DNA of 32,000 nt, taken from NCBI RefSeq assembly GCF_000014265.1, contig NC_008312.1, positions 2,970,001-3,002,000 of the forward strand, in the 5' to 3' direction. The translations under genes were made by a program, and so were the position numbers. The DNA is from Trichodesmium erythraeum IMS101. GTDB lineage: Bacteria > Cyanobacteriota > Cyanobacteriia > Cyanobacteriales > Microcoleaceae. Under the pieces are notes generated by a model. That model was not told the DNA's origin and did no database searches. It saw only the letters and a list, made by a program, of their open reading frames with translations. Shown one piece after another: positions 5,622-31,781 of the stretch. Position 1 is the stretch's first letter; each line of letters begins with the position of its first letter.

Positions 5622-6590
<969 letters not shown>

Positions 6591-17030: not shown

Positions 17031-17482
17031 TACAAAACTCGGTAAGTTTTATATTTTCAATGTCAATTAAAACCCTATAAATTAAGCACTTATAATCATT
17101 AAAAAAAAATAACATTTCTAGGGATTGTAAAGTACAATTTATATTTCTTAATCCTTAGGGAAAACCCATTAGTCAAGAATCACGTTTACTACCTGGTACT
17201 TTAAGAAAAAATAGGTTAAAAATAAGGTAAATAATAAAGCTTTGTTGCACTATGGATGCCCATAGTGTAAAAATGATAGTACAATATTAAGCCGAATGAT
17301 TCAAATAGGTAAACCTAAGAATTATATGGGTTAAAATCTAGTTACTTTTTGGGGGAGTGGTTTGCCTTAGGGAGTTTGTGCGGCAGCTATATCGCCACCT
17401 TCACACAACAAAGTCGTAAATAAGGTAAAGCTGTCAATAAGGTAAATAAGGTAAAAATTTTTAACAGTAATGTTTTTACGTT

Positions 17483-17627
17483 AAAATTTACCTCTGGTAA
17501 AATATATTTTTAAAATTTACCTCTGGTAAAATATATTTTTAAAATTTACCTCTGGTAAAATATATTTTTAAAATTTACCTCTGGTAAAATATATTTTTAA
17601 AATTTACCTCTGGTAAAATATATTTTT
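17483..17627. repeat. Perfect tandem array, 5 x 29 bp, each unit holding the palindrome TTTACC-TCT-GGTAAA
   Basis: The unit AAAATTTACCTCTGGTAAAATATATTTTT starts at 17483, 17512, 17541, 17570 and 17599. There are no spacers. It lies about 340 bp upstream of the ThDP-enzyme gene. Confidence 0.95.
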
Positions 17628-17897
17628 TATTAGCGATTTTTAGTACCCTTGGTATTTCCCTTGCTAATACTGGGTTTAGAACCATTTTCGGTGTGAAAAA
17701 TCTCAAAGTCCAGCTATTGACTAAAGTTTCTCAAAAAAAAGAAGTAAAAAGAAACTTTCAAAGTTCACCTATAGTCTGTTAATGATTTAGGATTACTGTA
17801 TATCCTGTTGTTAAATTTTACAGAACTTACGTATGGCCTCTATATATAATGTATTTTTGATAATTCTTTCAGATGTTTAAACTGCAATTAGTGTTTT

Positions 17898-17913
17898 TGC
17901 GTAAGTCCTGATT
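17898..17913. repeat. Left arm of a perfect 16-bp inverted repeat flanking the ThDP-enzyme gene
   Basis: TGCGTAAGTCCTGATT lies at 17898-17913. Its exact reverse complement lies at 19730-19745. Confidence 0.9.
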
Positions 17914-17967
17914 TTTATAATGTTGATTAAGTTTTTAAATACCTTTTATGAGAGGAGAACAATAAAA

Positions 17968-19605
17968 ATGAACACTGCAGAATTATTAATCAAATGCCTC
18001 GAAAACGAAGGGGTAAAATATATATTTGGACTTCCTGGAGAAGAGAATTTGAACATTTTAGAAGCTCTGAAAAATTCTTCAATCCAATTTATTACTACCC
18101 GACATGAACAAGGTGCTGCTTTTATGGCAGATGTCTACGGTCGTCTAACAGGAAAAGCAGGAGTTTGTTTATCAACATTAGGTCCTGGTGCTACTAATTT
18201 AATGACTGGTGTTGCTGATGCTAATTTGGACGGCGCACCTTTAGTAGCAATTACAGGTCAAGTTGGTACTGATAGAATGCACATAGAATCTCACCAATAT
18301 TTAGATTTGGTGGCTATGTTTTCTCCAGTAACTAAATGGAATGCTCAAATTCTTCGCCCTAGTAATACACCAGAAATTGTTCGCAAAGCATTTAAAGTAG
18401 CTCAACAAGAAAAACCTGGTGCGATTCATATCGACCTACCAGAAAACATTGCAGCGATGTCTGTAGAAGGGAAACCCTTGAAGCAGGACAAGCGGGAAAA
18501 ATCTTATTCTGCTTATCAGAGTATGACCGAAGCAGCAGTGGCAATTTCTAAAGCCAAAAACCCGATGATTTTGGTAGGAAATGGAGCTCTTCGAGGGAAT
18601 GCAAGTGAAATTGTAACGGAGTTTGCTACACGATTAAATATTCCTGTTGCTAATACTTTTATGGGTAAAGGGGTGATTCCTTATACTCATCCTCTGTCTT
18701 TATGGACAACAGGATTACAACAACGGGATTTTATTACTTGTGCTTTTGAGCAAACAGATTTGGTGATTGCAGTTGGTTACGACTTGATTGAATATTCACC
18801 AAAAAAATGGAATCCTCAAGGTAAAATTCCAGTTATTCATGTTGGGGCAAAATATGCAGAGATTGACAGTAGTTATATTCCTATCGCTGAAATAGTAGGA
18901 GATATTTCTGATTCTTTGAATGAAATTTTGCGACGCTCCGAGCGCATAAATCAATTAAGCCCAACTGTATCAGAGATTAGAAAAAGTATGCGCTATGAAT
19001 ATGAGGGACATGGCAAGGATGATGGGTTTCCAATTAAGCCTCAAAAACTAATTTATGATTTACGTCAGGTTATGGGTCCGGAGGATATTGTCATCTCTGA
19101 TGTTGGTGCCCATAAAATGTGGATTGCTAGGCATTATCATTGTGAACGTCCTAATACTTGTTTGATTTCTAACGGATTTGCGGCGATGGGTATTGCGATT
19201 CCAGGAGCGATCGCGGCGAAGTTAGTTTATCCTGAGCGTAAGGTTGTGGCAGCTACGGGGGATGGTGGGTTTATGATGAATTGTCAAGAGTTGGAAACTG
19301 CTTTACGAGTGGGTACTAATTTTGTGACTTTGATTTTTAATGATGGTGGTTATGGTTTGATTGAGTGGAAACAGGAAAACCATTTTGGGGAGTCATCTTT
19401 TATTAAGTTCGGCAATCCAGATTTTGTTAAGTTTGCTGAAAGTTTTGGTTTGAAAGGTTATCGAGTTGAGTCTGCTGCTGATTTAATTCCTACTCTGAAA
19501 GAGGCTCTTGCTCAAGATGTTCCTGCTGTGATAGACTGCCCTATTGATTACCGAGAAAATTCTCGTTTTAGTCAAAAATCAGGTGGTTTAAATTGTTCTG
19601 TTTAG
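17968..19605 (+). CDS. Acetolactate-synthase-like ThDP-dependent enzyme, candidate 2-oxoglutarate decarboxylase of the cyanobacterial TCA bypass
   Basis: MNTAELLIKCLENEGVKYIFGLPGEENL..., HEQGAAFMADVYGRLTGKAG and the ThDP motif GDGGFMMNCQELETA...NDGGYG are present. I chose the start at the ATG at 17968, preceded by GAGAGGAG, not the upstream TTG at 17920. The SSADH gene lies nearby. Confidence 0.8.
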   Translation: MNTAELLIKCLENEGVKYIFGLPGEENLNILEALKNSSIQFITTRHEQGAAFMADVYGRLTGKAGVCLSTLGPGATNLMTGVADANLDGAPLVAITGQVGTDRMHIESHQYLDLVAMFSPVTKWNAQILRPSNTPEIVRKAFKVAQQEKPGAIHIDLPENIAAMSVEGKPLKQDKREKSYSAYQSMTEAAVAISKAKNPMILVGNGALRGNASEIVTEFATRLNIPVANTFMGKGVIPYTHPLSLWTTGLQQRDFITCAFEQTDLVIAVGYDLIEYSPKKWNPQGKIPVIHVGAKYAEIDSSYIPIAEIVGDISDSLNEILRRSERINQLSPTVSEIRKSMRYEYEGHGKDDGFPIKPQKLIYDLRQVMGPEDIVISDVGAHKMWIARHYHCERPNTCLISNGFAAMGIAIPGAIAAKLVYPERKVVAATGDGGFMMNCQELETALRVGTNFVTLIFNDGGYGLIEWKQENHFGESSFIKFGNPDFVKFAESFGLKGYRVESAADLIPTLKEALAQDVPAVIDCPIDYRENSRFSQKSGGLNCSV

Positions 19606-19729
19606 GCTTTGCTGAAAAACTTTTTGGTGAAGGGAAGCAATTGTTGACTTGACAAAAGCTTTTTGAGGTTTAACAGCAGTAAAATTTTTACGAGTTCTAG
19701 TTTCCTGAGGTACATCCAAAACTTAACTC

Positions 19730-19745
19730 AATCAGGACTTACGCA
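19730..19745. repeat. Right arm of the 16-bp inverted repeat flanking the ThDP-enzyme gene
   Basis: AATCAGGACTTACGCA is the exact reverse complement of 17898-17913. Confidence 0.9.
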
Positions 19746-19931
19746 GTGCTGCTTGGTATGGTGTGTTTTTGATAAAAATTTCATATATTTACACTATAAT
19801 TAATGCCTTTTCGTAAGTCCTTTCAATATAAAGTTTATAGGTTCAAGTTTATAGGTTATGTCACGTACCTCACTAGCTTAAAAAGCTATATATTAGTCAG
19901 TTTGATATAATTTTAAACGATAACCTGTATC

Positions 19932-21317
19932 TTACCTCTCAATATCTTCTAACACATCCTGAAATGGATTAGAAATGAAAAGGTTATCCATTCGGAAATC
20001 TTTAGCTTTTCCTTCTGCTTGCATCTGCCTGAGAATTGCTGCAGTTGCATTTACTGCTGACTGCATTGCACTTTCAATACAGCCTCCAGCAAAAGAGCAA
20101 TTATTTCCAGCTAGATATACTCATTTGTTGAGTTGCTGGTATTGCTATACCAACTTACTTGTGGCATAGTATTGCTTGAGATAATCTATCTTAAAAACTC
20201 CAGAAATCATTGGCTATTATTTCCAGCTAGATATACTCATTTGTTGATTTGTTGAGTTGCTGGTATTGCTATACCAACTGATTTGTGACATAGTATTGCT
20301 TGAGATAATCTATCTTAAAAACTCCAGAAATCATTGGCTATTCTTGCTAAACAACAGAAGCTAGACGATCATCTTCAGATTCAGAAATAGAATCTAGAGC
20401 AGCAGTTATTGGGCTATCTGAGTCCGATCCTTCCAGACCAAACTGATAAGCTTTATTCAGAAAAAAATCTGAACTCTTACTTGGGTAAATAGTCTGATAG
20501 CTCTCATAATTCCGTGTAGCCATCATCTTAGTGGAATCATCTTCCCAGTTATACCTGATGAGTATATTGAAAGCTGCATCATCTTGATCTGGATAAGGAT
20601 CAAGAAAATATATTTGTCGTGCCAGGGTATCTTTAAGAACGCATTTGATTGCTTCTCCTTCATATTCTGGCCAACCTGTGATAGCTCTACTATTTGCCCA
20701 AGGTTTCGGATCGCTCAAACCAAACATTGACATTGTTTGAGTTTTCTTGGTCTTCTGCCTGAGAGTAGTCGTCAATATCATTCCAACTGTATTTTAATCC
20801 CGGAAAAATTAGCTGTGTAGCAACAACACCGGGGCCAGGGAAATTTTTCTGTCCCAAAGTGATCTCCACCATTTGCCTCCAAAACTTTGGAAAAGTAGTG
20901 TCAAAACAGCTTGGAGTTTTCTGGAATTCTCATCGGCCCCATTTAATTCACATATTTTCTTCTATTACTTTTGAATGTAGGAGAATATGCGCGCCCACCA
21001 ACTAGGACTTGTCCATTTTTTTGTTGGCGAGCTTCATAAATTATGATATCTGTAATTCCTGCTTGATGCAATTCGTAGGTGGCTTTTGCTCCGGGAAAAC
21101 CAGCTCCTATTATGGCAACCTTTATACTTGTATCTGTCACATTTGCAAAAGGAGCAGAATTATCTCGTACTAATTGAGGATAATTATAAACAAAGGTATC
21201 TACCATGGGGGAATATCCCGTATTTAATATGTTTAGTTGCTCTGTTTTTCTAGTAGCTCTTCGACTCTTGGGCTTCAGCTTACCGAAAATACTGCCTACT
21301 CCTCTAAGGGCAGACAA
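19932..21317 (-). pseudogene. Decayed flavin-containing amine oxidase (L-amino-acid oxidase / tryptophan 2-monooxygenase-like) gene
   Basis: The N-terminal FAD fold is present (KVAIIGAGFPGAKATYEL...GGRA). Next comes YVN*MGPMRIPENSKLF*HYF with in-frame TAA and TGA, then FPGPGVVATQLIFPGLKYSW in another frame. The C-terminal FAD motif VYLAGNNCSFAGGCIESAMQSAVNA ends at TAA (19932-19934). An internal tandem duplication is also present. Confidence 0.75.
20101..20340. repeat. Tandem duplication (116 bp plus 124 bp) inside the amine-oxidase pseudogene
   Basis: TTATTTCCAGCTAGATATACTCATTTGTTG...CATTGGCTA occurs at 20101-20216 and again at 20217-20340. The second copy carries an extra 8-bp ATTTGTTG duplication and a few substitutions. 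Confidence 0.9.
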
Positions 21318-21473
21318 TGATGGAAATTATAAGTAGGCATAATTCAATTCACTACCTTACTTTACACTACAGCAACTGGATATATTATATTTACAGCTAT
21401 TTTACCACTATTTTACCATCAAAGAAAATTAAATAATAGTTAAGTTGCTATTTAAGTTTTTTGTGCGATGAAG

Positions 21474-21508
21474 GTGTTAGGTTTCAGGTATCAGGTTTTA
21501 GGTTTAAA
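21474..21508. repeat. STRR-like heptamer microsatellite
   Basis: gtgttag gtttcag gtatcag gttttag gtttaaa has period 7. Confidence 0.8.
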
Positions 21509-21634
21509 AATCAACAAATTGATCATATCTTACTACCAAGTCGATTGATTTTAGTCACACCGTTAAATCTCTATAACTTTTTACTTCAATCAATTTTCTA
21601 TCTTTGCTTTCTAACTGAAACCTAAAATTACTAA

Positions 21635-22084
21635 ACCTACTCAAACTTAAAATATTTGGGAGTGCTAATGGTCAGCTTATAAAAAATTAGAAAGAAAAAA
21701 GTCATTTACCAAAAATACCTTTTTTTGAGGTTTGTCTGATTTTTTTTAGCATCATATTTGAGCAAATATTCGTTAGCGATCGCTACCTACTCAAACTTAA
21801 AATATTTGGGAGTGCTAATGGTCAGCTTATAAAAAATTAGAAAGAAAAAAGTCATTTACCAAAAATACCCTTTTTTGAGGTTTGTCTGATTTTTTTTAGC
21901 ATTATATTTGAGCAAATATTCGTTAGCGATCGCTACCTACTCAAACTTAAAATATTTGGGAGTGCTAATGGTCAGCTTATAAAAAATTAGAAAGAAAAAA
22001 GTCATTTACCAAAAATACCCTTTTTTGAGGTTTGTCTGATTTTTTTTAGCATCATATTTGAGCAAATATTCGTTAGCGATCGCT
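21635..22084. repeat. Tandem triplication, 3 x 150 bp, of the dndD 3' end (last ~26 codons plus stop) and its ~71-bp 3' flank
   Basis: AGTGCTAATG recurs at 21661, 21811 and 21961. The copies differ by single substitutions (21720 T vs C; ATCATA vs ATTATA). Each junction falls just after a HIP1 site (GCGATCGCT|ACCTAC). Confidence 0.95.
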
Positions 22085-23988
22085 TCTAAATTACGTAGAT
22101 TTTCTACTTCTGATTTACTAATCTCAGTATCAGTAGAAAACAGAATAACTTGATGACTAGCAGCAGGGAAATAACGTTCAACTAAATTTTGACGATGAGA
22201 AGAATCTAACCTACCTAGAGGTGTATCAATAGCCACAGGTAAACGTCTACCAGAAACCCTTGCCAACCCCCATAAAAAAGAAATTGCCAAAAGTTGTTTT
22301 TCCCCTGCAGATATTCGATTTTTAGGAACAAGTTGCCCTTGATTATTATAGAGAAAAAGGGTAAAATTATCAGTATCAATAGCCACGCGATGAACTAAGT
22401 CTGATTTATGCAAAAGATAACGGAAACATTCAGTTACTTCTCTTTCTAATTTATTCAGCTTTTTCAGGGTTAACTTATGTTTAAATAGCTGTAAAGTCTG
22501 CTTAACTTTTGCAGAAGAATTAATTATATGTTGAATATTGTGACGTTCGATAGTTTCGTCAGTATAACTCAACAATTCTTTCTTAGTTTGAGTAATAGCA
22601 TCCTCTAATTTTTTAGAATCACGCTTACTATTTTCATAAGCAACTTCTGCCCTTGCTAACTCAGTTTGTGACTCTTGCAAAGTAGTTGCTAAAATTTCAT
22701 AAGCTTCTGGGGGTGCTGCAGCTGCCAATTGCTTTTCCAAAATATCTATCTCTACTTCAAAATCTTTCAGACGAGTTAAACTTTCCCGGGCACTTTTAAG
22801 AGAATCTTCAATCTCATAGCGCAATAAATTTTCTAGTAGAATTAAAGTTTCTTCATCAGCGGACAACCAAGGTTCATTAACTTGATTAATATCATCTTTC
22901 AGCGTCAAATTTTCTTGATTGAGAAACTCTTCAATTTTGCTAATTTTATCAGTAGAAATAGATAAATCATCCAGATAATTAAGTAGACGTTTATCTCTTT
23001 CCTGAAAAGCATCCAAAGCAATTTCTGCTTCATGGCGTAAAATTTCCAAATCACCCTGAGAACTTGCTTGTTCCAAAAGTGGAGAAATTAAAGCTATAGG
23101 TAAAGCTCCCCCAGCAAGTTCAACCATTTCCTGACGAGCATTATCCACATCTAGCTCTGTATCTTTCAACTCTTGTTCTAACTGACTCCTTTCCGCAGCA
23201 ATTTTCCCTCCTTCTGAGACGAATTTTCTCATTGCTTTTTTTTGCTTTTGTTGAGATTTTTTTAATTTTTTTTCCAAGTCTATTTTTTTGTCTTTTATCA
23301 ATTCTAAATCTGTTTTTTGCTGATTAATTTTTTGTTCAATTTCCTCTAGATTTGCTATTTCTTTAGTCTTAGAAAGTTGTTTCTTTTTCCGAGTAACTAA
23401 AATATCTAAATCTGCTGCCAGACGTTCCGCTAATTCTAATCCCAATAATGACTGAATTGCATCTACAACTAAAGGTGGTGGTGTTTCTAATTCAGCTAAT
23501 TCTTTTACCTGTTCTCCATCAAATAGAAATAGGTTAGAAATTCCTAAAGGTAAAAGATTTTCTATATATTCATCCCAGGTATTTGCTAAGTAATAATCTG
23601 GCCATTCTCCATCAAGAATTCCCAGAGTATCTTTGCCGTCTTTAGGATTTTTTTCCCAGGTACGAACAATACGATATTCTACAATTTGGTCATCTTGAAT
23701 ATGTTCAAAAGCTAATTCAATACGAGTTTTTTCTGTCGGTGGAGTATTCCGGTTTACGCACTGAGAAAGAAAGTCGCCATAAGTTAAATTTCCCCTAGTT
23801 GAACATTGGGCACGATGACCGTAAAGTGCAAGGCGAATGGCATCTAAAAGAGTAGTTTTTCCTCCTCCATTCATACCTCCAAATAAGATTATAGGGCAGG
23901 GGCGATCGCTAAGTGTAGGGCGAAGGTTTATTGTTTGTTTACCGAAGTACGGTCCGAAGTTTTGTAAGACGAGTTCTAAGAATATCAT
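22006..23988 (-). CDS. dndD: DNA phosphorothioation protein DndD (SMC/ABC-like ATPase)
   Basis: The 660-aa ORF has MIFLELVLQNFGPYFGKQTINL...ILFGGMNGGGKTTLLDAIRLALYG (Walker A), a long central coiled coil, a C-terminal signature (ISAGEKQLLAISFLWGLARVSGRRLPVAIDTPLGRLDSSHR) and VILFSTDTEI. This is the DndD architecture. Confidence 0.9.
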   Translation of the reverse strand: MIFLELVLQNFGPYFGKQTINLRPTLSDRPCPIILFGGMNGGGKTTLLDAIRLALYGHRAQCSTRGNLTYGDFLSQCVNRNTPPTEKTRIELAFEHIQDDQIVEYRIVRTWEKNPKDGKDTLGILDGEWPDYYLANTWDEYIENLLPLGISNLFLFDGEQVKELAELETPPPLVVDAIQSLLGLELAERLAADLDILVTRKKKQLSKTKEIANLEEIEQKINQQKTDLELIKDKKIDLEKKLKKSQQKQKKAMRKFVSEGGKIAAERSQLEQELKDTELDVDNARQEMVELAGGALPIALISPLLEQASSQGDLEILRHEAEIALDAFQERDKRLLNYLDDLSISTDKISKIEEFLNQENLTLKDDINQVNEPWLSADEETLILLENLLRYEIEDSLKSARESLTRLKDFEVEIDILEKQLAAAAPPEAYEILATTLQESQTELARAEVAYENSKRDSKKLEDAITQTKKELLSYTDETIERHNIQHIINSSAKVKQTLQLFKHKLTLKKLNKLEREVTECFRYLLHKSDLVHRVAIDTDNFTLFLYNNQGQLVPKNRISAGEKQLLAISFLWGLARVSGRRLPVAIDTPLGRLDSSHRQNLVERYFPAASHQVILFSTDTEISKSEVENLRNLEAIANEYLLKYDAKKNQTNLKKGYFW

Positions 23989-25125
23989 TTCAGTTATTAG
24001 TTATCAGTTATCAATACTTATCCCACTCAGTATTCGGCTTGAAATACTGAAGTTTATTTTTTGATTCTTAAGACTTACCTTTTTCCTGTAGAAGGTAAGT
24101 CTAACAAATAAAATTTTAATTTACCCCGTGAGAAATTTTTGCCTTTTATCCAAATTTATTTGGGAAAATATAGGTTTACCAGAAATAAACTTTTCAAAGA
24201 AAATTTTATAGTTACTCCTATATCAGTTATCAGTTATCAATACTTATCCCACTCAGTATTCGGCTTGAAATACTGAAGTTTATTTTTTGATTCTTAAGAC
24301 TTACCTTTTTCCTGTACAAGGTAAGTCTAACAAATAAAATTTTAATTTACCCCGTGAGGAATTTTTGCCTTTTATCCAAATTTATTTGGGAAAAGATAGG
24401 TTTACCAGAAATAAACTTTTCAAAGAAAATTTTATAGTTACTCCTATATCAGTTATCAGTTATCAATACTTACCCTACTCAGTATTCGGCTTGAAATACT
24501 GAAGTTTATTTTTTGATTCTTAAGACTTACCTTTTTCCTGTACAAGGTAAGTCTAACAAATAAAATTTTAATTTACCCCGTGAGGAATTTTTGCCTTTTA
24601 TCCAAATTTATTTGGGAAAAGATAGGTTTACCAGAAATAAACTTTTCAAAGAAAATTTTATAGTTACTCCTATATCAGTTATCAGTTATCAATACTTACC
24701 CTACTCAGTATTCGGCTTGAAATACTGAAGTTTATTTTTTGATTCTTAAGACTTACCTTTTTCCTGTAGAAGGTAAGTCTAACAAATAAAATTTTAATTT
24801 ACCCCATGAGGAATTTTTGCCTTTTATCTAAATTTATTTGGGAAAATATAGGTTTACCAGAAATAAACTTTTCAAAGAAAATTTTATAGTTACTCCTATA
24901 TCAGTTATCAGTTATCAATACTCACCCTACTCAGTATTCGGCTTGAAATACTGAAGTTTATTTTTTGATTCTTAAGACTTACCTTTTTCCTGTAGAAGGT
25001 AAGTCTAACAAATAAAATTTTAATTTACCCCGTGAGGAATTTTTGTCTTTTATCTAAATTTATTTGGGAAAATATAGGTTTACCAGAAATAAACTTTTCA
25101 AAGAAAATTTTATAGTTACTCCTAT
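23989..25125. repeat. Type-A tandem array, 5 x 226 bp, starting directly at the dndD start codon
   Basis: TCAGTTATCAA recurs at 24004, 24230, 24456, 24682 and 24908. Each unit holds heptamers (CAGTTAT)n, an 8-bp AU-rich hairpin followed by TTTATTTTTT, a perfect 10-bp hairpin AGACTTACCT-N12-AGGTAAGTCT, and a ~73-bp core shared with the type-B units. Confidence 0.95.
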
Positions 25126-26190
25126 TTACTATTGCACTTTTTCTGTAGAAGTTAGGTCTAACAAATAGATTTTTTTTCAACAAGAAAAAATTTTGGGATT
25201 TCATCTAGAGGATGAACTGAAAAGATAAAATTTCATATTATCTAAATTTATTTGGGAAAATATAGGTTTACCAGAAATAAACTTTTCAAAGAAAATTTTA
25301 TAGTTACTCCTATTTACTATTGCACTTTTTCTGTAGAAGTTAGGTCTAACAAATAGATTTTTTTTCAACAAGAAAAAATTTTGGGATTTCATCTAGAGGA
25401 TGAACTGAAAAGATAAAATTTCATATTATCTAAATTTATTTGGGAAAATATAGGTTTACCAGAAATAAACTTTTCAGAGAAAATTTTATAGTTACTCCTA
25501 TTTACTATTGCACTTTTTCTGTAGAAGTTAGGTCTAACAAATAGATTTTTTTTTCAACAAGAAAAAATTTTGGGATTTCATCTAGAGGATGAACTGAAAA
25601 GATAAAATTTCATATTATCTAAATTTATTTGGGAAAATATAGGTTTACCAGAAATAAACTTTTCAGAGAAAATTTTATAGTTACTCCTATTTACTATTGC
25701 ACTTTTTCTGTAGAAGTTAGGTCTAACAAATAGATTTTTTTTTCAACAAGAAAAAATTTTGGGATTTCATCTAGAGGATGAACTGAAAAGATAAAATTTC
25801 ATATTATCTAAATTTATTTGGGAAAATATAGGTTTACCAGAAATAAACTTTTCAGAGAAAATTTTATAGTTACTCCTATTTACTATTGCACTTTTTCTGT
25901 AGAAGTTAGGTCTAACAAATAGATTTTTTTTTCAACAAGAAAAAATTTTGGGATTTCATCTAGAGGATGAACTGAAAAGATAAAATTTCATATTATCTAA
26001 ATTTATTTGGGAAAATATAGGTTTACCAGAAATAAACTTTTCAGAGAAAATTTTATAGTTACTCCTATTTACTATTGCACTTTTTCTGTAGAAGTTAGGT
26101 CTAACAAATAGATTTTTTTTTCAACAAGAAAAAATTTTGGGATTTCATCTAGAGGATGAACTGAAAAGATAAAATTTCATAATTACTCCT
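25126..26190. repeat. Type-B tandem array, about 5.6 x 188/189 bp, contiguous with the type-A array
   Basis: TTACTATTGCAC recurs at 25126, 25314, 25502, 25691, 25880 and 26069. The period varies with a T8/T9 run. Each unit ends with the same core as type A (TCTAAATTTATTTGGGAAAATATAGGTTTACCAGAAATAAACTTTTCA[A/G]AGAAAATTTTATAGTTACTCCTAT). The last unit is truncated. Confidence 0.95.
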
Positions 26191-26269
26191 AACATCAGGA
26201 AATAAGTTATTACAAAAGTGTGTTGATCACTTAATAACTGAAATGTTACCTAAATATAGGATAAATTCA

Positions 26270-26533
26270 TAATAATTGGTATAACAAATAGATTTTTTTT
26301 CTTCAACAAGAAAAAAATTTTGCCTTTGGCATAAACTCAGAAAAATAAATATTTACCAGATAGAATTGTATCTCTCGGAAAAGCTTTATAAATTCCTAGT
26401 CATTATAGAATTTTATAGGTAAGAGATAAGTCTTAAAAATATAATTTTATTGTCACTATGTGAGTAATTTTTACCTTTTCTCTTGATTCCAAAAAAATAG
26501 AGGTTTACTAAACAATAAAATTCTTGCTTATTC
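26270..26533. repeat. Diverged single copies of the A/B repeat unit next to the dndC stop (older repeat generation)
   Basis: ACAAATAGATTTTTTTTCTTCAACAAGAAAAAAATTTTGCCTTT... and GATAAGTCTTAAAAATATAATTTTATTGTCACTATGTGAGTAATTTTTACCTTTTCTC...AATAGAGGTTTACTAAACAATAAA align by eye with type-B and type-A units with many substitutions. Confidence 0.6.
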
Positions 26534-28090
26534 TCACTCAGTATCTGCCGAAATTTGACGAGAAAACTTCATATTTGCCCAACTTAATTGTTTGATTTTT
26601 TCTGAAACTTTTCCTCTATCAACAGCTTCTTTGAGGTCTCTTTTATTATGAGCATTTTGAATAGCTTCTTCCTTAGAACGAGAACTTGTTTCAAAACATT
26701 GTTCAAGACTTTCATAAATCTTATACCGGTGAGACTTAATATAATATTGCCGTTCTGTGTCTAACAGTTTTGCCATAAGTTCAAGATGCATCTCATCCTG
26801 ATTACATATTTCTTCTAATACTGACCATTCATCACTACCTAAAAGACTCATTCCTGTACCAGGACGACAGTCTTGAAATTCTTCTCCTATTACTTCTTCA
26901 TATATACGAGGTAAACTATCATCAAACTCGTGTTTTTCTTCTAACCATATGCGTCTAATTTCACTAAGTTCTTCTGAAGAAATTAGAGTAATACCTCGCA
27001 TATTTTCTGGAGCATTTTCACGAATTTTGGCTTGAGCTTCTAACAATTTTCTAAGTAAAGTATCTCGCCATTCTTTTTTGTAAGGACCGGGTATTGGTTC
27101 TACAGAAACTTCACCATTTATATTCCGTTCAAAGAGTTGAACTTTTCCCCAAATTCGCCGAAAATCTCTTTTATCTCTGTCAGAAATATCTAGTTCTTGA
27201 CGCAAATTTATTAGAGGTTGTAACCATTCTTTTTCTTCATCATTTTGAATCATTGCTGACATAGATTTATCACTATCTACTAAGGTACAAACCCAACATC
27301 CAAAACGAGAACTTCCACAACTAGGAGTAGAGGTATCAACCACTAAGGGACATTCATTATCTTCTGTTGCACCTCGATACATTGCTAGTAAATCTTTATT
27401 ACTATTTTCCCAAGGATTTTCCCATTGCATTAAATATAGCCAAACTTCATCAGTTCGCCAGTCTTCAATAGGAGTATAAAGCAAAGAATTAAGGAGACTA
27501 GGATGAGGGCTTAGATGGTTTCTTAATCTACCAATTTCTCGTTTATTCATTATTGCTAAACGATTAGCACTTTCTGCTTTACGAGTTCCTAAAACAACTA
27601 TTGTTTCCCCATTATTTCTAACAACATTACGAATAAAAAGATTGGATGGATCTATTTTTAAACGGGGAGTACACCAGCGAAATGTATGACGTGGAGCTGG
27701 GTATCCTTTACCAAGTAGTCCTACCCAGTATGTTTGTTTAACTGCTGGTTTTAATAAATGACATTCTATAGGTAGTTTCTGATTTTTTGCAGACTCTTTC
27801 ATCAACTGTAAAGAGTTAGTTACCCAAGCAGAAACAATGGGATTTTCTACTAATGTATCTGTGGTAATAACGTGGATAGTTTTAATTCGTTTTTTTTGGG
27901 GAAGTTCGGCGATCGCATTCCATATAAGCTGCAATGTTGCGGTACTATCTTTACCCCCTGAATATCCAATAACCCAGGGAATAGAATCTAAACAATATAG
28001 TTCTTGAATTTCTGTAGTTAGCTTTTTTATATCTTCTACTAATTGGGTAGTAGTTCTGCTTGGAAATAAAGATTGTTGTGTACCTTTCAT
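26534..28090 (-). CDS. dndC: DNA phosphorothioation protein DndC (PAPS-reductase-fold ATP pyrophosphatase / sulfurtransferase)
   Basis: The 518-aa ORF has IGYSGGKDSTATLQLIW (SGGKDS PP-loop), WCTPRLKI, and the Cys cluster SCGSSRFGCWVCT typical of DndC. Confidence 0.9.
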   Translation of the reverse strand: MKGTQQSLFPSRTTTQLVEDIKKLTTEIQELYCLDSIPWVIGYSGGKDSTATLQLIWNAIAELPQKKRIKTIHVITTDTLVENPIVSAWVTNSLQLMKESAKNQKLPIECHLLKPAVKQTYWVGLLGKGYPAPRHTFRWCTPRLKIDPSNLFIRNVVRNNGETIVVLGTRKAESANRLAIMNKREIGRLRNHLSPHPSLLNSLLYTPIEDWRTDEVWLYLMQWENPWENSNKDLLAMYRGATEDNECPLVVDTSTPSCGSSRFGCWVCTLVDSDKSMSAMIQNDEEKEWLQPLINLRQELDISDRDKRDFRRIWGKVQLFERNINGEVSVEPIPGPYKKEWRDTLLRKLLEAQAKIRENAPENMRGITLISSEELSEIRRIWLEEKHEFDDSLPRIYEEVIGEEFQDCRPGTGMSLLGSDEWSVLEEICNQDEMHLELMAKLLDTERQYYIKSHRYKIYESLEQCFETSSRSKEEAIQNAHNKRDLKEAVDRGKVSEKIKQLSWANMKFSRQISADTE

Positions 28091-28537
28091 TTTTATAAAT
28101 ATTCTCGAATTTAGTCAAATTAATTTTCTATGATTATGATCTAAATAGGTTCTAGGGATACTATTGTCAGGTTTGTCTTCTAGATTTTTTTTTAATAAGC
28201 AACTAAAGCTGATTATCGTTCAATATTTTTTTTAATTGAATATTGTATGATTCAATCAATTACAGATAGAATAAAATCGGTTTCTTCTTGGCAATACCAT
28301 TTTTTTCTTTTTGTTGATTTCGGTAAAATGTTGACAGTAATGCGCTAATTTTTTTTCTTTTATCCCTTTTTTTTTTAATTATAAAATTAACTATAATAAA
28401 CATATTATTTTGAATAATATCAATATTTATCCCTCATTTTCTATCGGTTACTCTTGACATAATAAATATTATATGATTAGTAAAAAGAACTCTACAATTA
28501 ATTATTATAATAACTCAAAAGTTTTTAAAAACTTTTG

Positions 28538-28566
28538 TTGACAAAAATTTATATATGTAGTATTTT
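28538..28566 (+). promoter_or_regulatory. Candidate sigma70-type promoter of the dndB-like gene
   Basis: Perfect -35 TTGACA (28538-28543), a 17-nt spacer, then TATTTT (28561-28566). The ATG at 28586 lies 20 nt downstream. The promoter sits inside the TTG-extended ORF and so supports the shorter start. Confidence 0.4.
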
Positions 28567-28585
28567 TCAAAAAAAGATTAAAAAT

Positions 28586-30205
28586 ATGTCCAAAAAATTA
28601 ATGATAAAAAAGGCCAATAAACCGACATCAGAAATAGCAAAAGAAATTTTAGAAAATGATAATCGAGAAAAAGAAGCGATCGCTATCCTATTAGACAAAC
28701 ATATAGGCAAAGACAATAGATTATTAGTACAAAAAACCATGATGGGAAACACAGAAGCTTACATTGGTTCGGTCACTCTAGAATGGTTAGATAGTCGTGT
28801 ACGCTTTGCCTCTCAACTACCATTATTTAGGCAAAAATTTGACATAGAAACTGATAATATAATTCGGGATTCAGAAACAATAGATGAAATTCAACAACGA
28901 CCCTTAGACTGGTCTCGTCAAGCTCCATTAACTTTATATTTAGCAACTAGAAAATCCCATAAATTTCCGGCAGTATTAGTAGTAATTAGTCCGAGTTGGG
29001 TAGATAATCCTAAGGCAGAAGAATGGAATAAAAATGGTGAAGCAAATAAATCTGCAACTGATTTTTTTTCCCTAGATTCACAGGGAAAAGTAGGATTATT
29101 AGACCTACGTTTAGAAGTAGCAGTATTTGCCTTAGATGGTCAACATAGACTGATGGGAATTCAAGGATTAATGGAATTAATAAAAACTGGTAGATTACCA
29201 AGATATAACAAACAAAAGAAATCAGTAGGTGCAGCAATTACTATTGATGATTTAACTATAACTCATCAGATTGAATTACCAGAAATACAAAAATTAGCTT
29301 ACGAACAAATAGGAATAGAATTTATTCCAGCAGTAGTAAAAGGGGAGACAAGAGCACAAGCACGACGCAGAGTTAGGTCAGTTTTTGCTCATGTAAATTT
29401 GACAGCAGTAAAATTAAGTAAAGGGCAATTAGCATTATTAAATGAAGATGATGGATTTGCTATTGTAGCGAGAAAAATAGCAATTTATCATCCTATTTTA
29501 AAGGAGAAAGATGGTAGAAATCCAAGAATAAATTGGGATAGTGCAACTGTGGCAGCTAACTCTACTGTTTTAACTACTCTCCAAGCATTGCAAGAAATGT
29601 CTGAAAGATATTTAAAACCTCGTTATCCCTATTGGAAACCTTCAGATAGAGGTTTAATTCCTATGCGTCCTGCAGAAGAAGAGCTAGAAGAGGGGGTAGA
29701 AGAATTTATGGTACTTTGGAATTATTTGTCTAATTTGCCTAGTTATTCTAGATTAGAAAATGGCTCTGAAACTTCGGAATTAAGAAGATTTAGTTTTGAG
29801 AGAAAACCGGGAGAAGGTCATGTTTTGTTCCGCCCTATTGGGCAAATTGCTTTTGCTGAAGCTTTAGGGATTTTAATATATAAAAAAGAATTTTCTCTCA
29901 AAGAAGTTTTTCATAAATTAAATAAGTATGATGTGGATGGTGGTTTGAGTGGAATAGAATTTCCTGACTCAATTTGGTATGGGGTTTTATATGATTTTAA
30001 TCGGAAACGAATGTCGGTAGCTGGTAGAGATTTAGCAATGAGATTATTTATCTATATATTAGGTGGAGTTTCTGACAAAATGGAGCGGGCAGAAGTTCGT
30101 CGGCAGTTGGCGCAAGCAAGACGAGTTGGAGAGGATCAAGCTGTAGATTTTCAGGGTAAGTTTGTCGAATTAAAAAAAGTAGGATTACCTGAAATTTTAT
30201 ATTAA
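28586..30205 (+). CDS. dndB: DndB-like DGQHR-domain protein (ParB-fold, dnd-associated), unusually long
   Basis: VFALDGQHRLMGIQGL (DGQHR motif) and SVFAHVNLTAVKLSKGQLALLNEDD (FxxxN motif region) are present. The gene is divergent from dndC across a 495-bp AT-rich spacer. I chose the start at the first ATG (28586), giving 539 aa. Confidence 0.8.
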   Translation: MSKKLMIKKANKPTSEIAKEILENDNREKEAIAILLDKHIGKDNRLLVQKTMMGNTEAYIGSVTLEWLDSRVRFASQLPLFRQKFDIETDNIIRDSETIDEIQQRPLDWSRQAPLTLYLATRKSHKFPAVLVVISPSWVDNPKAEEWNKNGEANKSATDFFSLDSQGKVGLLDLRLEVAVFALDGQHRLMGIQGLMELIKTGRLPRYNKQKKSVGAAITIDDLTITHQIELPEIQKLAYEQIGIEFIPAVVKGETRAQARRRVRSVFAHVNLTAVKLSKGQLALLNEDDGFAIVARKIAIYHPILKEKDGRNPRINWDSATVAANSTVLTTLQALQEMSERYLKPRYPYWKPSDRGLIPMRPAEEELEEGVEEFMVLWNYLSNLPSYSRLENGSETSELRRFSFERKPGEGHVLFRPIGQIAFAEALGILIYKKEFSLKEVFHKLNKYDVDGGLSGIEFPDSIWYGVLYDFNRKRMSVAGRDLAMRLFIYILGGVSDKMERAEVRRQLAQARRVGEDQAVDFQGKFVELKKVGLPEILY

Positions 30206-30890: not shown

Positions 30891-31781
30891 ATGGATAGTA
30901 TTTTTATTCAAATAGTTGCTTACCGGGATTTAGAATTAGTTCCCACAGTTGAAGAGGCGATCGCTCATGCTACTCATCCCAAGCGTCTCACTTTTGGTAT
31001 TTGTTGGCAGTATGGTACGGATGAGGAAAAAGATTATATTAGTAAACTTAAAGCTATAAAAAATTGTCGTATTATTACAGTTACAGCTTCTCAAGCTCGC
31101 GGTGTAGGTTGGGCGAGGTCTCTGGTGCAAAAGTTATGGCAAAAAGAACAATATACTCTACAAATTGATGCCCATATGAGATTTTTACCTGGATGGGATG
31201 TGAAATTAATTAAAATGCTGAAAGCCTGTCCTAGTGAAAAACCGCTTTTAAGTGCTTATCCTCCTGCTTACAGACCCCCTAGAGAATTGCTTGGAGATAC
31301 ACCGAGTCGCTTAGAGCCAAGCCAGTTTGGAGATCCTGGTACTTTAACTTTAAAAGCAATAGGAGATTTGAGTAAATGCAGTACTCCGCAACTAGGAGCT
31401 TTTGTTGCTGCTGGATTTATTTTTGCAGAAGGGTCAATTATTGAAGAGGTGCCCTACGACCCGGATATTTATTTTACTGGAGAAGAGGTGTTATTTGCTG
31501 CTAAAGCTTGGACGAAGGGGTGGGATATTTATCATCCTAATTTGAGTGTTTGTTGGCATTTTTATAATACTGGTAAAAAGCGGGTTGTGCATTGGGAAGA
31601 TCATCAACATTGGTGGGTCCAAAATAAGGTATCTGAATCTCGTTTTCGTCAGATTTTGGGAATGGAAACTGCAAAGGAGGATTTTGGAATTTATGGATTA
31701 GGAAATGTCAGAAGTTTGGCAGAGTATGAAGCATTTGCCGGTGTAAATTTTCAGGAACGTTGGTTTATTCATTTTATTTAG
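30891..31781 (+). CDS. Glycosyltransferase, GlcNAc-transferase-like family (PF11397-type pattern)
   Basis: IFIQIVAYRDLELVPTVEEAIAHATHPKRLTFGICWQY...ARGVGWARSLVQKLWQKEQYTLQIDAHMRFLPGWD...PLLSAYPP matches the pattern I recall for this family (YRD...W...DSH/DAH xRF xxxWD). Confidence 0.65.
   Translation: MDSIFIQIVAYRDLELVPTVEEAIAHATHPKRLTFGICWQYGTDEEKDYISKLKAIKNCRIITVTASQARGVGWARSLVQKLWQKEQYTLQIDAHMRFLPGWDVKLIKMLKACPSEKPLLSAYPPAYRPPRELLGDTPSRLEPSQFGDPGTLTLKAIGDLSKCSTPQLGAFVAAGFIFAEGSIIEEVPYDPDIYFTGEEVLFAAKAWTKGWDIYHPNLSVCWHFYNTGKKRVVHWEDHQHWWVQNKVSESRFRQILGMETAKEDFGIYGLGNVRSLAEYEAFAGVNFQERWFIHFI

What the first reader, a model, noticed from the sequence alone, without database searches (positions are those of the whole stretch)
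22006..30205. Non-canonical dnd cluster: long divergent DndB-like gene plus dndC and dndD, with no visible dndE, dndA or restriction partner
DndC (SGGKDS PP-loop, CxxC cluster) and DndD (Walker A, coiled coil, signature motif) appear intact. However, no ORF of 60 aa or more that could be DndE follows dndD. That space holds the 150-bp triplication, about 320 bp of non-coding DNA with a heptamer microsatellite, and then an unrelated pseudogene. No cysteine desulfurase (dndA/iscS) and no dndFGH, pbeABCD or sspE-like restriction module lies in the window. The DGQHR protein is 539 aa, whereas canonical DndB is roughly 350-400 aa as I recall it, so it carries a C-terminal extension of unknown function (about residues 330-539). 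Three readings are possible. It may be an orphan epigenetic modification-only PT system. It may be a variant chemistry that does not need DndE. Or it may be an operon being dismantled, given the surrounding pseudogenes and repeats.
Basis: partly seen in the sequence, partly recalled or inferred. Interest (0 to 1): 0.7.

Follow-up and report, generated by a model that had tools for sequence, protein, structure and literature searches.

The report
Split cyanobacterial DNA phosphorothioation (dnd) locus
This is the ordinary, intact DNA sulfur-modification (dnd) gene set of the marine cyanobacterium Trichodesmium, whose "missing" dndE gene sits elsewhere in the genome, as a 2008 paper already tabulated, so it is neither a new chemistry nor a decaying operon.

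Summary
The genes are real. dndD (22006-23988, -) and dndC (26534-28090, -) match their curated models over full length. A 539-aa DGQHR protein (28586-30205, +) is transcribed divergently from dndC. The window holds no dndE, cysteine desulfurase or restriction partner.

The window maps to Trichodesmium erythraeum IMS101. A 2008 supplementary table already lists these three genes, plus dndE about 2.8 Mb away and an unlinked cysteine desulfurase.

I confirmed the split with tools. One Trichodesmium MAG assembly carries DGQHR-dndC-dndD on one contig and an intact dndE on another, beside thiD-ftsZ-ftsQ. Close relatives keep dndD-dndE-thiD-ftsZ-ftsQ linked, so dndE stayed at the ancestral site. All four genes show purifying selection (dN/dS 0.12-0.26).

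The long DGQHR protein is not DndB with a C-terminal extension. It is a widespread, full-length DndB paralog, found divergent from dndC in 51 cyanobacterial loci.

The finding did not mention two tandem arrays (189 bp x6, 226 bp x5) that fill the dndC-dndD spacer.

Verdict: an already known, split, restriction-less cyanobacterial dnd system. Low interest, with minor curiosities: an unlinked DndD/DndE "obligate pair" and repeat hot spots around dndD.

The parts
28586..30205 (+). Long DGQHR-domain protein, 539 aa (an upstream TTG at 28535 would give 556 aa). It is a full-length paralog of DndB in the ParB/Srx superfamily, transcribed divergently from dndC.
   Evidence: TIGR03187 193 bits (cut-off 59); TIGR03233 DndB only 17.6 bits (cut-off 328). 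Pfam PF14072 45.6 bits. Conserved end to end in 53 loci and in roughly 100 clusters at 50% identity. hhalign to canonical DndB gives 98% probability, residues 45-480 on 8-330. AlphaFold pLDDT 93. D184, G185, H187, R188, Q104 and R105 are invariant and Q186 is nearly invariant.
28091..28585 (.). Divergent intergenic region, 495 bp, between dndC and the DGQHR gene. Presumably holds both promoters.
   Evidence: Gene coordinates. The divergent orientation is conserved in all 51 loci that carry the long DGQHR gene. The promoters are inferred, not shown.
26534..28090 (-). dndC, 518 aa: PP-loop ATP pyrophosphatase / sulfurtransferase.
   Evidence: TIGR03183 685 bits (cut-off 290) and NF005316 726 bits. 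PADLOC DndC 649 bits. The SGGKDS and Cys motifs are in the translation. dN/dS 0.15-0.26 against 8 relatives.
26182..26533 (.). Unique part of the dndC-dndD spacer. Its homologs in Okeania and Dapis have themselves been amplified into arrays.
   Evidence: blastn at 68-77% identity to repeated copies inside the dndC-dndD spacers of L012, L017, L019, L020 and L047.
25050..26181 (.). Tandem array, 189 bp x 6.0, 99% identical copies.
   Evidence: TRF, sequence. It shares a module of about 63-76 bp with the 226-bp unit.
23995..25125 (.). Tandem array, 226 bp x 5.0, 98% identical copies. It ends 6 bases upstream of the dndD ATG, so dndD's immediate upstream sequence is itself repeated.
   Evidence: TRF, sequence. 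Each unit holds two hairpins, but folding is not better than shuffles (z about -1.4 to -1.6). Environmental contig L001 holds only 2.8 and 1.8 copies.
22006..23988 (-). dndD, 660 aa: coiled-coil ABC/SMC-type ATPase.
   Evidence: TIGR03185 679 bits (cut-off 246), full length. PADLOC DndD 777 bits and 'PbeC' 934 bits. No CxC motif in the sequence. dN/dS 0.16-0.24. An identical protein occurs on 12 marine metagenome contigs.
21635..22084 (.). 150 bp x 3 tandem repeat. Each unit is the last 79 bp of dndD plus 71 bp of downstream sequence. The cyanobacterial HIP1 palindrome GCGATCGC sits at each junction. The dndD reading frame is untouched.
   Evidence: TRF, sequence. There are 1, 2 or 3 copies in otherwise identical environmental contigs L001-L005, and homologous repeats of about 150 bp at the same place in Okeania and Dapis.
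21479..21505 (.). Heptamer microsatellite (AGGTTTC) x 3.9, inside 317 bp of non-coding DNA.
   Evidence: TRF, sequence.
20347..21317 (-). Three fragments of a pseudogene for an FAD/NAD-binding oxidoreductase-like protein. Unrelated to dnd.
   Evidence: Weak Pfam and NCBIfam Rossmann-fold hits. All three fragments match one intact ORF, 17843-19894, in Okeania L019.
30891..31781 (+). GlcNAc-type glycosyltransferase. A syntenic neighbour, not part of the system.
   Evidence: PF11397 234 bits. Adjacent to the DGQHR gene in most loci of the clade that extend that far.

Best explanation
This is the resident, vertically inherited Dnd DNA-phosphorothioation (modification) system of Trichodesmium erythraeum IMS101, in the split layout typical of its lineage.

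Layout (shown):
- The window carries the long DGQHR paralog, divergent from dndC. A repeat-filled 2.5-kb spacer follows, then dndD.
- dndE, the DNA-binding partner of DndD, was separated from dndD by an old rearrangement. It still lies at its ancestral site beside thiD-ftsZ-ftsQ, about 2.8 Mb away in IMS101.
- Sulfur would be supplied by an unlinked NifS/IscS-type cysteine desulfurase.
- There is no dndFGH-type restriction module.

Mechanism (inferred from established Dnd biochemistry, not shown here):
1. The desulfurase loads a persulfide onto the Fe-S, PP-loop enzyme DndC.
2. The DndD ATPase dimer and the double-RHH protein DndE, acting in trans, scan and hold the target motif.
3. A non-bridging phosphate oxygen is replaced by sulfur.
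4. The DGQHR paralog most likely plays the DndB-like role of limiting or regulating modification. Canonical dndB is absent from this clade.

Shown: gene identities, intactness, purifying selection, the conserved layout, and an intact unlinked dndE in the lineage. Inferred: enzymatic activity, the presence of phosphorothioate in the DNA, and the regulatory role of the DGQHR protein.
For: Identity of the source:
- Three gene coordinates in PMC2442094 Additional file 9 equal window coordinates plus 2,970,000.
- hetR lies in the window, and GC is 33% with 16 HIP1 sites.

Gene identities: full-length equivalog HMM hits for DndC and DndD.

Conserved layout:
- 51 of 80 cyanobacterial DndD loci have dndE a median of 265 bp after dndD.
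- All 51 loci with the long DGQHR gene have it divergent from dndC.

The split:
- None of the 17 Trichodesmium, Okeania and Dapis loci has dndE. Eleven of them have 7.7-10 kb of sequence downstream of dndD. The dndD...ALS synteny is seen in 10 of them.
- The close relative MO_207.B10 (DndD 82% identical) keeps dndD-1.3 kb-dndE-comFB-thiD-ftsZ-ftsQ.
- The Trichodesmium dndE sits beside thiD-ftsZ-ftsQ, with no dndC, dndD or DGQHR gene within 10 kb.
- Assembly GCA_023356605.1 has DGQHR-dndC-dndD on JAKQYE010000256.1 (L009) and dndE on JAKQYE010000058.1 (L108).
- Okeania KiyG1, SIO3I5 and SIO3B5 have named DndE proteins on contigs of different length from their dndD contigs.
- The Trichodesmium DndE scores TIGR03184 134.6 bits against a cut-off of 71.85.

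Selection: dN/dS is 0.12-0.26 for the DGQHR gene, dndC and dndD, and 0.12-0.13 for dndE.

Literature:
- Cyanobacterial dnd clusters are vertically inherited, often incomplete or disordered, and lack dndFGH (PMC8569181).
- IscS can replace DndA (PMC4507180; PMC10853773).
Against: - The IMS101 dndE itself could not be retrieved with the tools. The source genome appears to be withheld from the collections, so its presence rests on the 2008 table plus congeneric MAGs.
- No data here show that phosphorothioate is present in the DNA or that the genes are expressed.
- Two tandem arrays separate dndC from dndD, so co-transcription is doubtful. Promoter-like sites are not enriched: 18 found against 32 expected.
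- DndD and DndE are described as an 'always linked' obligate pair (PMC10853773). Working in trans from 2.8 Mb apart is unusual and untested.
- Canonical dndB is missing. The function of the long DGQHR paralog is unknown, and it has no structural match in the PDB.
Confidence: 0.85

Rival explanations
1. A variant phosphorothioation chemistry that works without DndE: the DGQHR protein, DndC and DndD are a self-sufficient three-gene system.
For: There is no dndE within the window or within 10 kb of dndD in any genome of the clade. Ssp systems show that PT can be made without a DndE (PMC10853773).
Against: dndE is kept intact, under purifying selection, in Trichodesmium and Okeania genomes, and it is listed for IMS101. 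DndC and DndD are orthodox members of their families, 58-67% identical to orthologs that have an adjacent dndE. The DGQHR protein also occurs next to complete dndABCDE clusters, so it is not a substitute for DndE.
Confidence: 0.03
2. An operon in decay. Repeats have broken dndC-dndD co-transcription, dndE and dndB are lost from the locus, and the genes are on their way to becoming pseudogenes.
For: A 2.5-kb repeat-filled spacer lies between dndC and dndD, and a 3'-end triplication overlaps dndD. A pseudogene lies next door. Canonical dndB is absent from the whole clade. Trichodesmium is rich in non-coding DNA and pseudogenes (PMC4143802).
Against: All three ORFs are full length here and in the loci of the 17 related genomes that contain them whole. 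dN/dS is 0.12-0.26 at dS up to 0.53. The split layout is shared by three genera, so it is old and stable. A DndD protein identical to the window's is found on metagenome contigs from several ocean samples, and the Trichodesmium-MAG DndE on many more.
Confidence: 0.07
3. The ATPase is not DndD but PbeC, a CxC-type ABC ATPase. The locus would then be part of a Pbe-like defence system rather than a modification system.
For: The best PADLOC hit is a 'PbeC' model at 934 bits, against 777 bits for DndD.
Against: The TIGR03185 DndD equivalog matches full length at 679 bits. No CxC zinc-hook motif is present anywhere in the 660 aa. That motif defines the PbeC/CxC clade (PMC10853773). There is no PbeA helicase in the window. 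Orthologs sit between dndC and dndE in 51 loci. Several PADLOC PbeC models evidently include true DndD sequences.
Confidence: 0.02
4. The long DGQHR protein is not a DndB-like regulator. It is the sensor or effector of a PT-linked defence module, so the locus is a modification-plus-defence pair after all.
For: Outside cyanobacteria the same family is preceded, in what looks like an operon, by a small GIY-YIG-type gene. In L101/L102 that gene is a 113-aa ORF with no Pfam hit. In two contexts a RelA/SpoT-like gene follows, and in three of four contexts examined dnd genes lie on the same contig (complete dndA-E in L097). The QR and DGQHR motifs of the ParB-type active site are invariant or nearly so. 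DUF262/ParB-type domains act as PT sensors in SspE (established knowledge; PMC10853773).
Against: No GIY-YIG or RelA/SpoT partner exists in the window or in any of 80 cyanobacterial loci. The gene is always divergent from dndB or dndC, which is the usual layout for a regulator and its target. No nuclease domain is recognisable, and there is no PDB fold match.
Confidence: 0.15

Closest known systems
Cyanobacterial dnd clusters as catalogued by Frangeul et al. 2008 (PMC2442094, Additional file 9) and Jian et al. 2021 (PMC8569181)
   Same: It is the very same locus. The 2008 table lists DndD ABG51186, DndC ABG51187 and the 'DGQHR motif' protein ABG51188 of IMS101, with DndE (ABG52813) and DndA (ABG53058) unlinked. 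dndFGH is absent. The clusters are described as incomplete or disordered but vertically inherited.
   Different: Those papers did not describe the tandem arrays, did not show that dndE stayed beside thiD-ftsZ-ftsQ, and did not separate the long DGQHR family from canonical DndB.
Canonical dndABCDE of Streptomyces lividans and dptBCDE of Salmonella enterica Cerro 87
   Same: Orthologous DndC, DndD and DndE. A cysteine desulfurase supplied in trans is also known from E. coli and Salmonella (IscS).
   Different: dndE is not in the operon. There is no canonical dndB (TIGR03233). A divergently transcribed 539-aa DGQHR paralog is present instead. dndC and dndD are 2.5 kb apart rather than translationally coupled. 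There is no dndFGH.
DndB / DptB, the ATP-modulated repressor of dndBCDE (TIGR03233, PF14072)
   Same: Homologous over essentially the whole DndB length (hhalign 98%). Shares the QR and DGQHR motifs of the ParB/Srx fold and lies next to dndC.
   Different: Only 23% identity in the profile alignment, and it fails the DndB equivalog model. It is about 175 aa longer and sits on the opposite strand. It co-occurs with true DndB in many genomes, so it is a paralog and not the ortholog.
Split dnd clusters in toxic Microcoleus and Microcystis (PMC8546630)
   Same: A precedent for cyanobacterial dnd genes being spread over distant sites while remaining intact.
   Different: In Microcoleus the break lies between dndBC and dndDE, so the D-E pair stays together. 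Here the break lies between dndD and dndE.
Tery_0080-associated tandem repeat array of T. erythraeum (Pfreundt et al. 2014, PMC4143802)
   Same: A tandem array in the same genome whose units include a duplicated 3' part of the adjacent gene. The 150-bp dndD-end triplication is built the same way.
   Different: That array has units of 736-973 bp and yields the most abundant ncRNA in the cell. No transcription data are available for the dnd-flanking arrays.

Membership tests
Dnd phosphorothioation modification system | DndC: PP-loop (SGGKDS) PAPS-reductase-like protein matching the TIGR03183 equivalog | tested here: met
   685 bits against a cut-off of 290, residues 25-468 on model 2-446. Motifs read in the translation.
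Dnd phosphorothioation modification system | DndD: coiled-coil ABC ATPase matching the TIGR03185 equivalog, without a CxC hook | tested here: met
   679 bits against a cut-off of 246, full length. The only cysteines are four isolated residues and there is no CxC.
Dnd phosphorothioation modification system | DndE (TIGR03184) encoded in the genome | tested here: inconclusive
   Absent from the window. Present and intact in Trichodesmium MAGs and Okeania (134.6 bits against 71.85). For IMS101 itself the evidence is only the literature (ABG52813).
Dnd phosphorothioation modification system | DndD and DndE form a linked operonic dyad (the 'obligate pair' of PMC10853773) | tested here: not met
   No dndE within 10 kb of dndD in the window or in the 11 clade loci that have long downstream flanks. 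dndE lies on a different contig of the same assembly.
Dnd phosphorothioation modification system | Cysteine desulfurase (DndA or IscS/NifS) available | not testable with these tools
   None in the window. The 2008 table lists ABG53058 at 6,249,775, and similar homologs occur in cyanobacteria that lack dnd, which marks it as a housekeeping enzyme.
Dnd phosphorothioation modification system | Phosphorothioate linkages present in genomic DNA | not testable with these tools
   Needs LC-MS/MS or iodine cleavage.
Canonical DndB (TIGR03233 equivalog) | Score at or above the curated cut-off; about 355-370 aa; same strand as dndC and upstream of it | tested here: not met
   17.6 bits against a cut-off of 328. 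539 aa, on the opposite strand. True DndB (348-427 bits to a reference) occurs in 28 other cyanobacterial loci and in none of this clade.
DGQHR-domain family (TIGR03187) / Pfam DndB PF14072, ParB-Srx superfamily | Domain model above its cut-off, with conserved QR and DGQHR motifs | tested here: met
   193 bits against 59. PF14072 45.6 bits against 29.1. Q104, R105, D184, G185, H187 and R188 are invariant and Q186 is nearly invariant (at least 90%) among 70 family members.
PT-dependent restriction or defence partners (DndFGH, PbeABCD, SspE, TIGR04095-type enzyme) | At least one such gene adjacent to the modification genes | tested here: not met
   No PADLOC hit other than DndC and DndD (including the PbeC-labelled models) and a weak DndB match among the 14 window ORFs scanned. 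The flanks are a glycosyltransferase and an acetolactate synthase. The rest of the genome was not searchable.
PbeC / CxC ABC ATPase | CxC zinc hook at the coiled-coil apex, with PbeA helicase-nuclease and small partner proteins adjacent | tested here: not met
   No CxC motif and no PbeA, despite the PADLOC 'PbeC' top score.

The most novel reading that the evidence does not exclude
Two things together remain possible.

(a) The roughly 540-aa DGQHR family may be an uncharacterised dnd-associated sensor or effector. Elsewhere it is paired with a small GIY-YIG nuclease and sometimes a RelA/SpoT-like enzyme. Cyanobacteria may have kept it alone as the sole DndB-like controller.

(b) The copy-number-variable tandem arrays that abut the dndD start codon and overlap its stop may act as a population-level dial on dndD dosage. 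The clade has also uncoupled the supposedly obligate DndD-DndE pair. Together these would make genome phosphorothioation tunable or phase-variable in bloom-forming Trichodesmium.
Probability: 0.1. Interest if true: 0.6.

Novelty: already known. Interest (0 to 1): 0.22.

Why it matters
As a dnd system it adds little. The gene inventory of this exact locus, including the unlinked dndE and the lack of restriction genes in cyanobacteria, is already published.

Three side points may interest specialists:
1. A multi-genus clade (Trichodesmium, Okeania, Dapis) keeps DndD and DndE unlinked, with both under purifying selection. Coleofasciculus also has dndE more than 10 kb from dndD. This is a counter-example to the recent generalisation that the two are always an operonic dyad. 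It implies the pair can assemble in trans.
2. The 'DndB' of cyanobacteria is a distinct long paralog. Its relatives outside the phylum travel with a GIY-YIG-type gene near dnd clusters, which is a lead for an uncharacterised PT-associated module.
3. The dndC-dndD spacer and the dndD 3' end are recurrent hot spots for tandem amplification, and copy number appears to vary in natural populations.

Tried and rejected
- DndE homolog search with an Agrobacterium DndE returned only close alphaproteobacterial relatives.
- The same search with the L025 cyanobacterial DndE, plus a cluster look-up and the context of P0223, found no Trichodesmium sequence.
- The search succeeded only after I ranked hits by AT-biased amino-acid composition. 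That led to the close relative MO_207.B10, whose DndE was used as the query.
- The source genome itself never appeared in any collection. The best DndD locus was 89% identical, so it seems to be withheld.
- Rfam at gathering thresholds found nothing in the window.
- PDB sequence search and Foldseek against the PDB found no relative of the DGQHR protein, despite a model with pLDDT 93.
- tblastn of the DGQHR protein against plasmids gave 4 weak hits.
- The promoter/terminator scan of 21300-28700 found fewer promoter-like sites than shuffles and gave no support for array-borne promoters on the dnd strand.
- RNA folding of the 226-bp unit on either strand was not better than shuffles, so I dropped the idea of a structured ncRNA array.
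- The supplementary TSS table of the Trichodesmium primary-transcriptome paper is not held, so expression could not be checked.
- The PbeC reading was considered and rejected (see the rival explanations).
- The GUN4-domain hit to PADLOC PD-T4-6 at 430-837 was judged a shared-domain artefact.

Full report
WHAT IS IN THE SEQUENCE.

The region holds three large intact ORFs.
- ORF 22006-23988 (-) is DndD. It scores TIGR03185 679 bits against a curated cut-off of 246, with residues 1-659 on model positions 1-650.
- ORF 26534-28090 (-) is DndC. It scores TIGR03183 685 bits against 290 and NF005316 726 bits. The SGGKDS PP-loop and the CGSSRFGCWVC cysteine motif are readable in the translation.
- ORF 28586-30205 (+, 539 aa from the ATG; 556 aa from an upstream TTG) is a DGQHR-domain protein. 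It scores TIGR03187 193 bits against 59. It fails the DndB equivalog model TIGR03233 at 17.6 bits against 328. Pfam PF14072 scores 45.6 bits.

No DndE is encoded anywhere in the window.
- An HMM built from 120 DndE sequences detected DndE at 160-186 bits in 51 other cyanobacterial loci. In the window it found nothing at E<=10 with filters off.
- tblastn with 51 cyanobacterial DndE sequences gave only noise.
- There is also no DndA or GmrSD.
- The other window ORFs are GUN4, a flavin reductase, an ABC solute-binding protein, hetR, APS kinase, Wza- and Wzc-like exporters, an aldehyde dehydrogenase, RTX and DUF4347 fragments, and acetolactate synthase. None gave a meaningful defence-system hit.

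1. The 150-bp triplication (21635-22084) overlaps the last 79 bp of dndD rather than merely following it. The cyanobacterial HIP1 palindrome GCGATCGC sits at each unit junction.
2. dndC and dndD are not adjacent. They are 2.5 kb apart, and the gap holds a 189-bp x6 array and a 226-bp x5 array. The second array ends 6 bases before the dndD ATG.
3. The '330-539 C-terminal extension' is not correct (see the DGQHR section below).

WHERE IT COMES FROM, AND WHAT WAS ALREADY KNOWN.

Additional file 9 of Frangeul et al. 2008 (PMC2442094) lists these genes for Trichodesmium erythraeum IMS101 (CP000393):
- DndD ABG51186 at 2,992,006
- DndC ABG51187 at 2,996,534
- a 'DGQHR motif' protein ABG51188 at 2,998,586

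These equal window coordinates 22006, 26534 and 28586 plus exactly 2,970,000. hetR in the window, 33% GC and 16 HIP1 sites agree with that source.

The same table lists DndE ABG52813 at 5,784,151 and a DndA-like desulfurase ABG53058 at 6,249,775. The desulfurase has similar homologs in cyanobacteria that have no dnd genes, so it is a housekeeping enzyme. The table shows unlinked or distant dndE also in Lyngbya PCC 8106, Microcystis, Crocosphaera and Coleofasciculus PCC 7420.

Jian et al. 2021 (PMC8569181) describe cyanobacterial dnd systems as vertically inherited, with incomplete or disordered clusters and no dndFGH. Split dnd clusters are also reported in toxic Microcoleus (PMC8546630).

TOOL-BASED TEST OF THE SPLIT.

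A scan of one genome per species with the window's DndD returned 80 cyanobacterial loci. The source genome itself was not among them. My HMM and phmmer scans of these loci show one conserved layout:

long DGQHR (-) | optional canonical dndB (+, about 365 aa) and/or a third 431-aa paralog (-) | dndC | dndD | dndE

- dndE follows dndD in 51 loci, with a median gap of 265 bp and a maximum of 2.6 kb.
- None of the 17 Trichodesmium, Okeania and Dapis loci (DndD 78-89% identical) has dndE. Eleven of them have 7.7-10 kb of sequence downstream of dndD.
- Where the flanks extend far enough, this clade shares the synteny GT-DGQHR-dndC-dndD-...-acetolactate synthase. The rearrangement therefore predates the divergence of these genera.
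- Several Coleofasciculus and Symploca loci also lack an adjacent dndE. The Coleofasciculus H7-2 DndE appears to lie on the same 131,662-bp contig as its dndD, judged by equal contig length, but more than 10 kb away.

The key step was finding a close relative that still has the linked state. This is Microcoleaceae MO_207.B10 (DndD 82% identical, 35% GC). It carries DGQHR-dndC-dndD-1.3 kb-dndE-comFB-thiD-ftsZ-ftsQ. The dndE-thiD-ftsZ-ftsQ linkage is also present in Microcoleus and in L025.

Using that relative's DndE as the query retrieved named DndE proteins from four Okeania genomes and four Trichodesmium MAGs.
- The Trichodesmium protein (P0436, indexed in 241 blocks of the public-assembly collection, several of the contigs read being marine metagenomes) lies beside thiD-ftsZ-ftsQ.
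- No dndC, dndD or DGQHR remnant lies within 10 kb of it.
- In assembly GCA_023356605.1 it is on contig JAKQYE010000058.1. DGQHR-dndC-dndD is on JAKQYE010000256.1.
- It passes TIGR03184 at 134.6 bits against a cut-off of 71.85.

So dndE stayed where it was, and the other genes were separated from it.

IS IT DECAYING?

No.
- Against eight relatives, dN/dS is 0.16-0.24 for dndD, 0.15-0.26 for dndC and 0.12-0.21 for the DGQHR gene, at dS up to 0.53.
- For dndE it is 0.12-0.13.
- The ORFs are full length in every locus that contains them whole.
- A DndD protein identical to the window's occurs on 12 metagenome contigs, several of them from Tara Oceans samples.

WHAT THE LONG DGQHR PROTEIN IS.

- It is conserved from end to end in 53 cyanobacterial loci.
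- An exhaustive search of 1.84 billion cluster representatives found 593 relatives. About 100 of them are full-length proteins of about 520-580 aa, down to 27-30% identity, and their alignments run to residue ~535.
- Q104, R105, R111, D184, G185, H187 and R188 are invariant and Q186 is nearly invariant. These are the ParB/Srx-type active-site motifs.
- Profile-profile comparison with canonical DndB gives 98% probability. Residues 45-480 align with DndB 8-330 of 365.
- The extra length therefore comes from an N-terminal helix, insertions at about 75-100, 137-150, 201-240 and 345-360, and a tail of about 55 aa. It is not a 200-residue C-terminal module.
- AlphaFold gives one compact, confident model (pLDDT 93, pTM 0.88). 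It has no PDB sequence or fold relative.
- It is a paralog and not the ortholog of DndB. It coexists with true DndB in 28 cyanobacterial loci and next to complete dndA-B-C-D-E clusters elsewhere.
- In all four non-cyanobacterial contexts examined, a small gene of 111-133 aa lies immediately upstream and looks like an operon partner. In three it has Pfam GIY-YIG hits (some only weak or faint); in L101/L102 it has no Pfam hit and my GIY-YIG call rests on reading its sequence. In two contexts a RelA/SpoT-like gene follows, and in three of the four dnd genes lie on the same contig.
- No such partner exists in cyanobacteria.
- A DPT-restricted 'DGQHR domain protein' was already noted by phylogenetic profiling in 2011 (PMC3226654). 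GIY-YIG/URI nucleases in dnd neighbourhoods were noted in 2024 (PMC10853773).
- In the Trichodesmium clade it is the only DndB-like gene and is always divergent from dndC. A DndB-like regulatory or limiting role is therefore the most economical inference, but it is only an inference.

THE PbeC LABEL.

PADLOC's best hit for the ATPase is a 'PbeC' model, at 934 bits against 777 bits for DndD. PbeC is the CxC-hook sister clade of DndD (PMC6459918; PMC10853773). The window protein has no CxC motif and no PbeA neighbour. Its orthologs sit between dndC and dndE. It is DndD.

THE REPEATS.

- The clade's dndC-dndD spacers range from about 170 bp to 3.6 kb. Most carry tandem arrays with periods of 71-445 bp and about 2 to 11 copies. 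These arrays are built from sequence homologous to the window's unique spacer.
- Repeats of about 150 bp that include the dndD 3' end recur in Okeania and Dapis.
- Environmental contigs otherwise identical to the window carry 1, 2 or 3 copies of the 150-bp unit and fewer copies of the large arrays. This could be real polymorphism or short-read assembly collapse.
- Pfreundt et al. 2014 describe an analogous array in this genome whose units duplicate the 3' part of Tery_0080.
- I found no Rfam family, no excess of promoter-like sites and no unusual RNA stability. Function is open. Slippage-prone local amplification in a repeat-rich genome is the default reading.

VERDICT.

This is an orthodox, restriction-less cyanobacterial Dnd modification system in a lineage-specific split layout, and it was already tabulated in 2008. 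The 'DndE-independent chemistry' and 'dismantling' readings are not supported. The 'modification-only' reading is reasonable.

The residual interest is modest:
- an unlinked DndD/DndE pair, against the stated rule of obligate linkage;
- an uncharacterised long DGQHR paralog family;
- repeat hot spots flanking dndD.

Noticed in passing
window 23995-26181; also L010-L012, L017-L021, L024 and L047 between dndC and dndD: The dndC-dndD spacer is a recurrent site of tandem amplification across Trichodesmium, Okeania and Dapis. Periods are 71-445 bp, with about 2 to 11 copies, built from homologous spacer sequence. In the window the 226-bp array ends 6 bases before the dndD ATG.
   Followed up: partly
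window 21635-22084; L001-L005, L010, L012, L016, L019, L047: The 150-bp unit (the dndD 3' end plus its flank, with HIP1 at each junction) is present 1, 2 or 3 times in environmental contigs otherwise identical to the window. Homologous repeats of about 150 bp occur at the same place in Okeania and Dapis. This is either copy-number polymorphism or assembly collapse.
   Followed up: partly
L097 335-3275; L098 446-2451; L099/L100 938-3881; L101/L102: Outside cyanobacteria the ~540-aa DGQHR paralog is preceded by a small GIY-YIG-type gene (111-133 aa; in L101/L102 a 113-aa ORF with no Pfam hit). In two contexts a RelA/SpoT-like gene follows, and in three of the four contexts dnd genes lie on the same contig (complete dndA-E in L097). 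This may be an uncharacterised PT-associated module.
   Followed up: partly
L027, L033, L038, L039, L043, L054, L055, L078, L080, L085, L089: A third DndB-like paralog (about 400-431 aa, opposite strand) lies between the long DGQHR gene and dndC in several cyanobacteria. In L089 it is the only DndB-like gene in the stretch fetched, next to a compact dndCDE and a GmrSD_N gene.
   Followed up: no
L108 1265-3013 (and L109-L113): In Trichodesmium a 582-aa ORF with no Pfam, NCBIfam or PADLOC match lies directly upstream of the relocated-context dndE, at the presumed rearrangement breakpoint.
   Followed up: partly
window 5622-6554 (-): hetR (Peptidase_S48 plus the HetR C-terminal hood domain), the heterocyst regulator homolog known from non-heterocystous Trichodesmium. 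Useful as a taxonomic marker for the window.
   Followed up: no
window 17481-17627: A perfect 29-bp x 5.1 tandem repeat (100% matches) in the AT-rich intergenic region upstream of the acetolactate synthase gene.
   Followed up: no
window 4242-4372: A 66-bp x 2 in-frame repeat (93% identical) duplicates a Ser/Glu/Lys-rich segment in the C-terminal tail of the family-5 solute-binding protein.
   Followed up: no
window 15899-16688 (-) and 430-837 (+): Likely gene fragments: an RTX calcium-binding repeat piece, a DUF4347 piece, and a GUN4-domain ORF of 135 aa. The GUN4 ORF also matches the C-terminal part of PADLOC model PD-T4-6 through the shared domain only.
   Followed up: no
window 22006-23988 (PADLOC result): Several PADLOC v2 'PbeC' models score a bona fide DndD higher than the DndD models do. 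A pipeline that takes top hits would mislabel cyanobacterial DndD as PbeC.
   Followed up: yes
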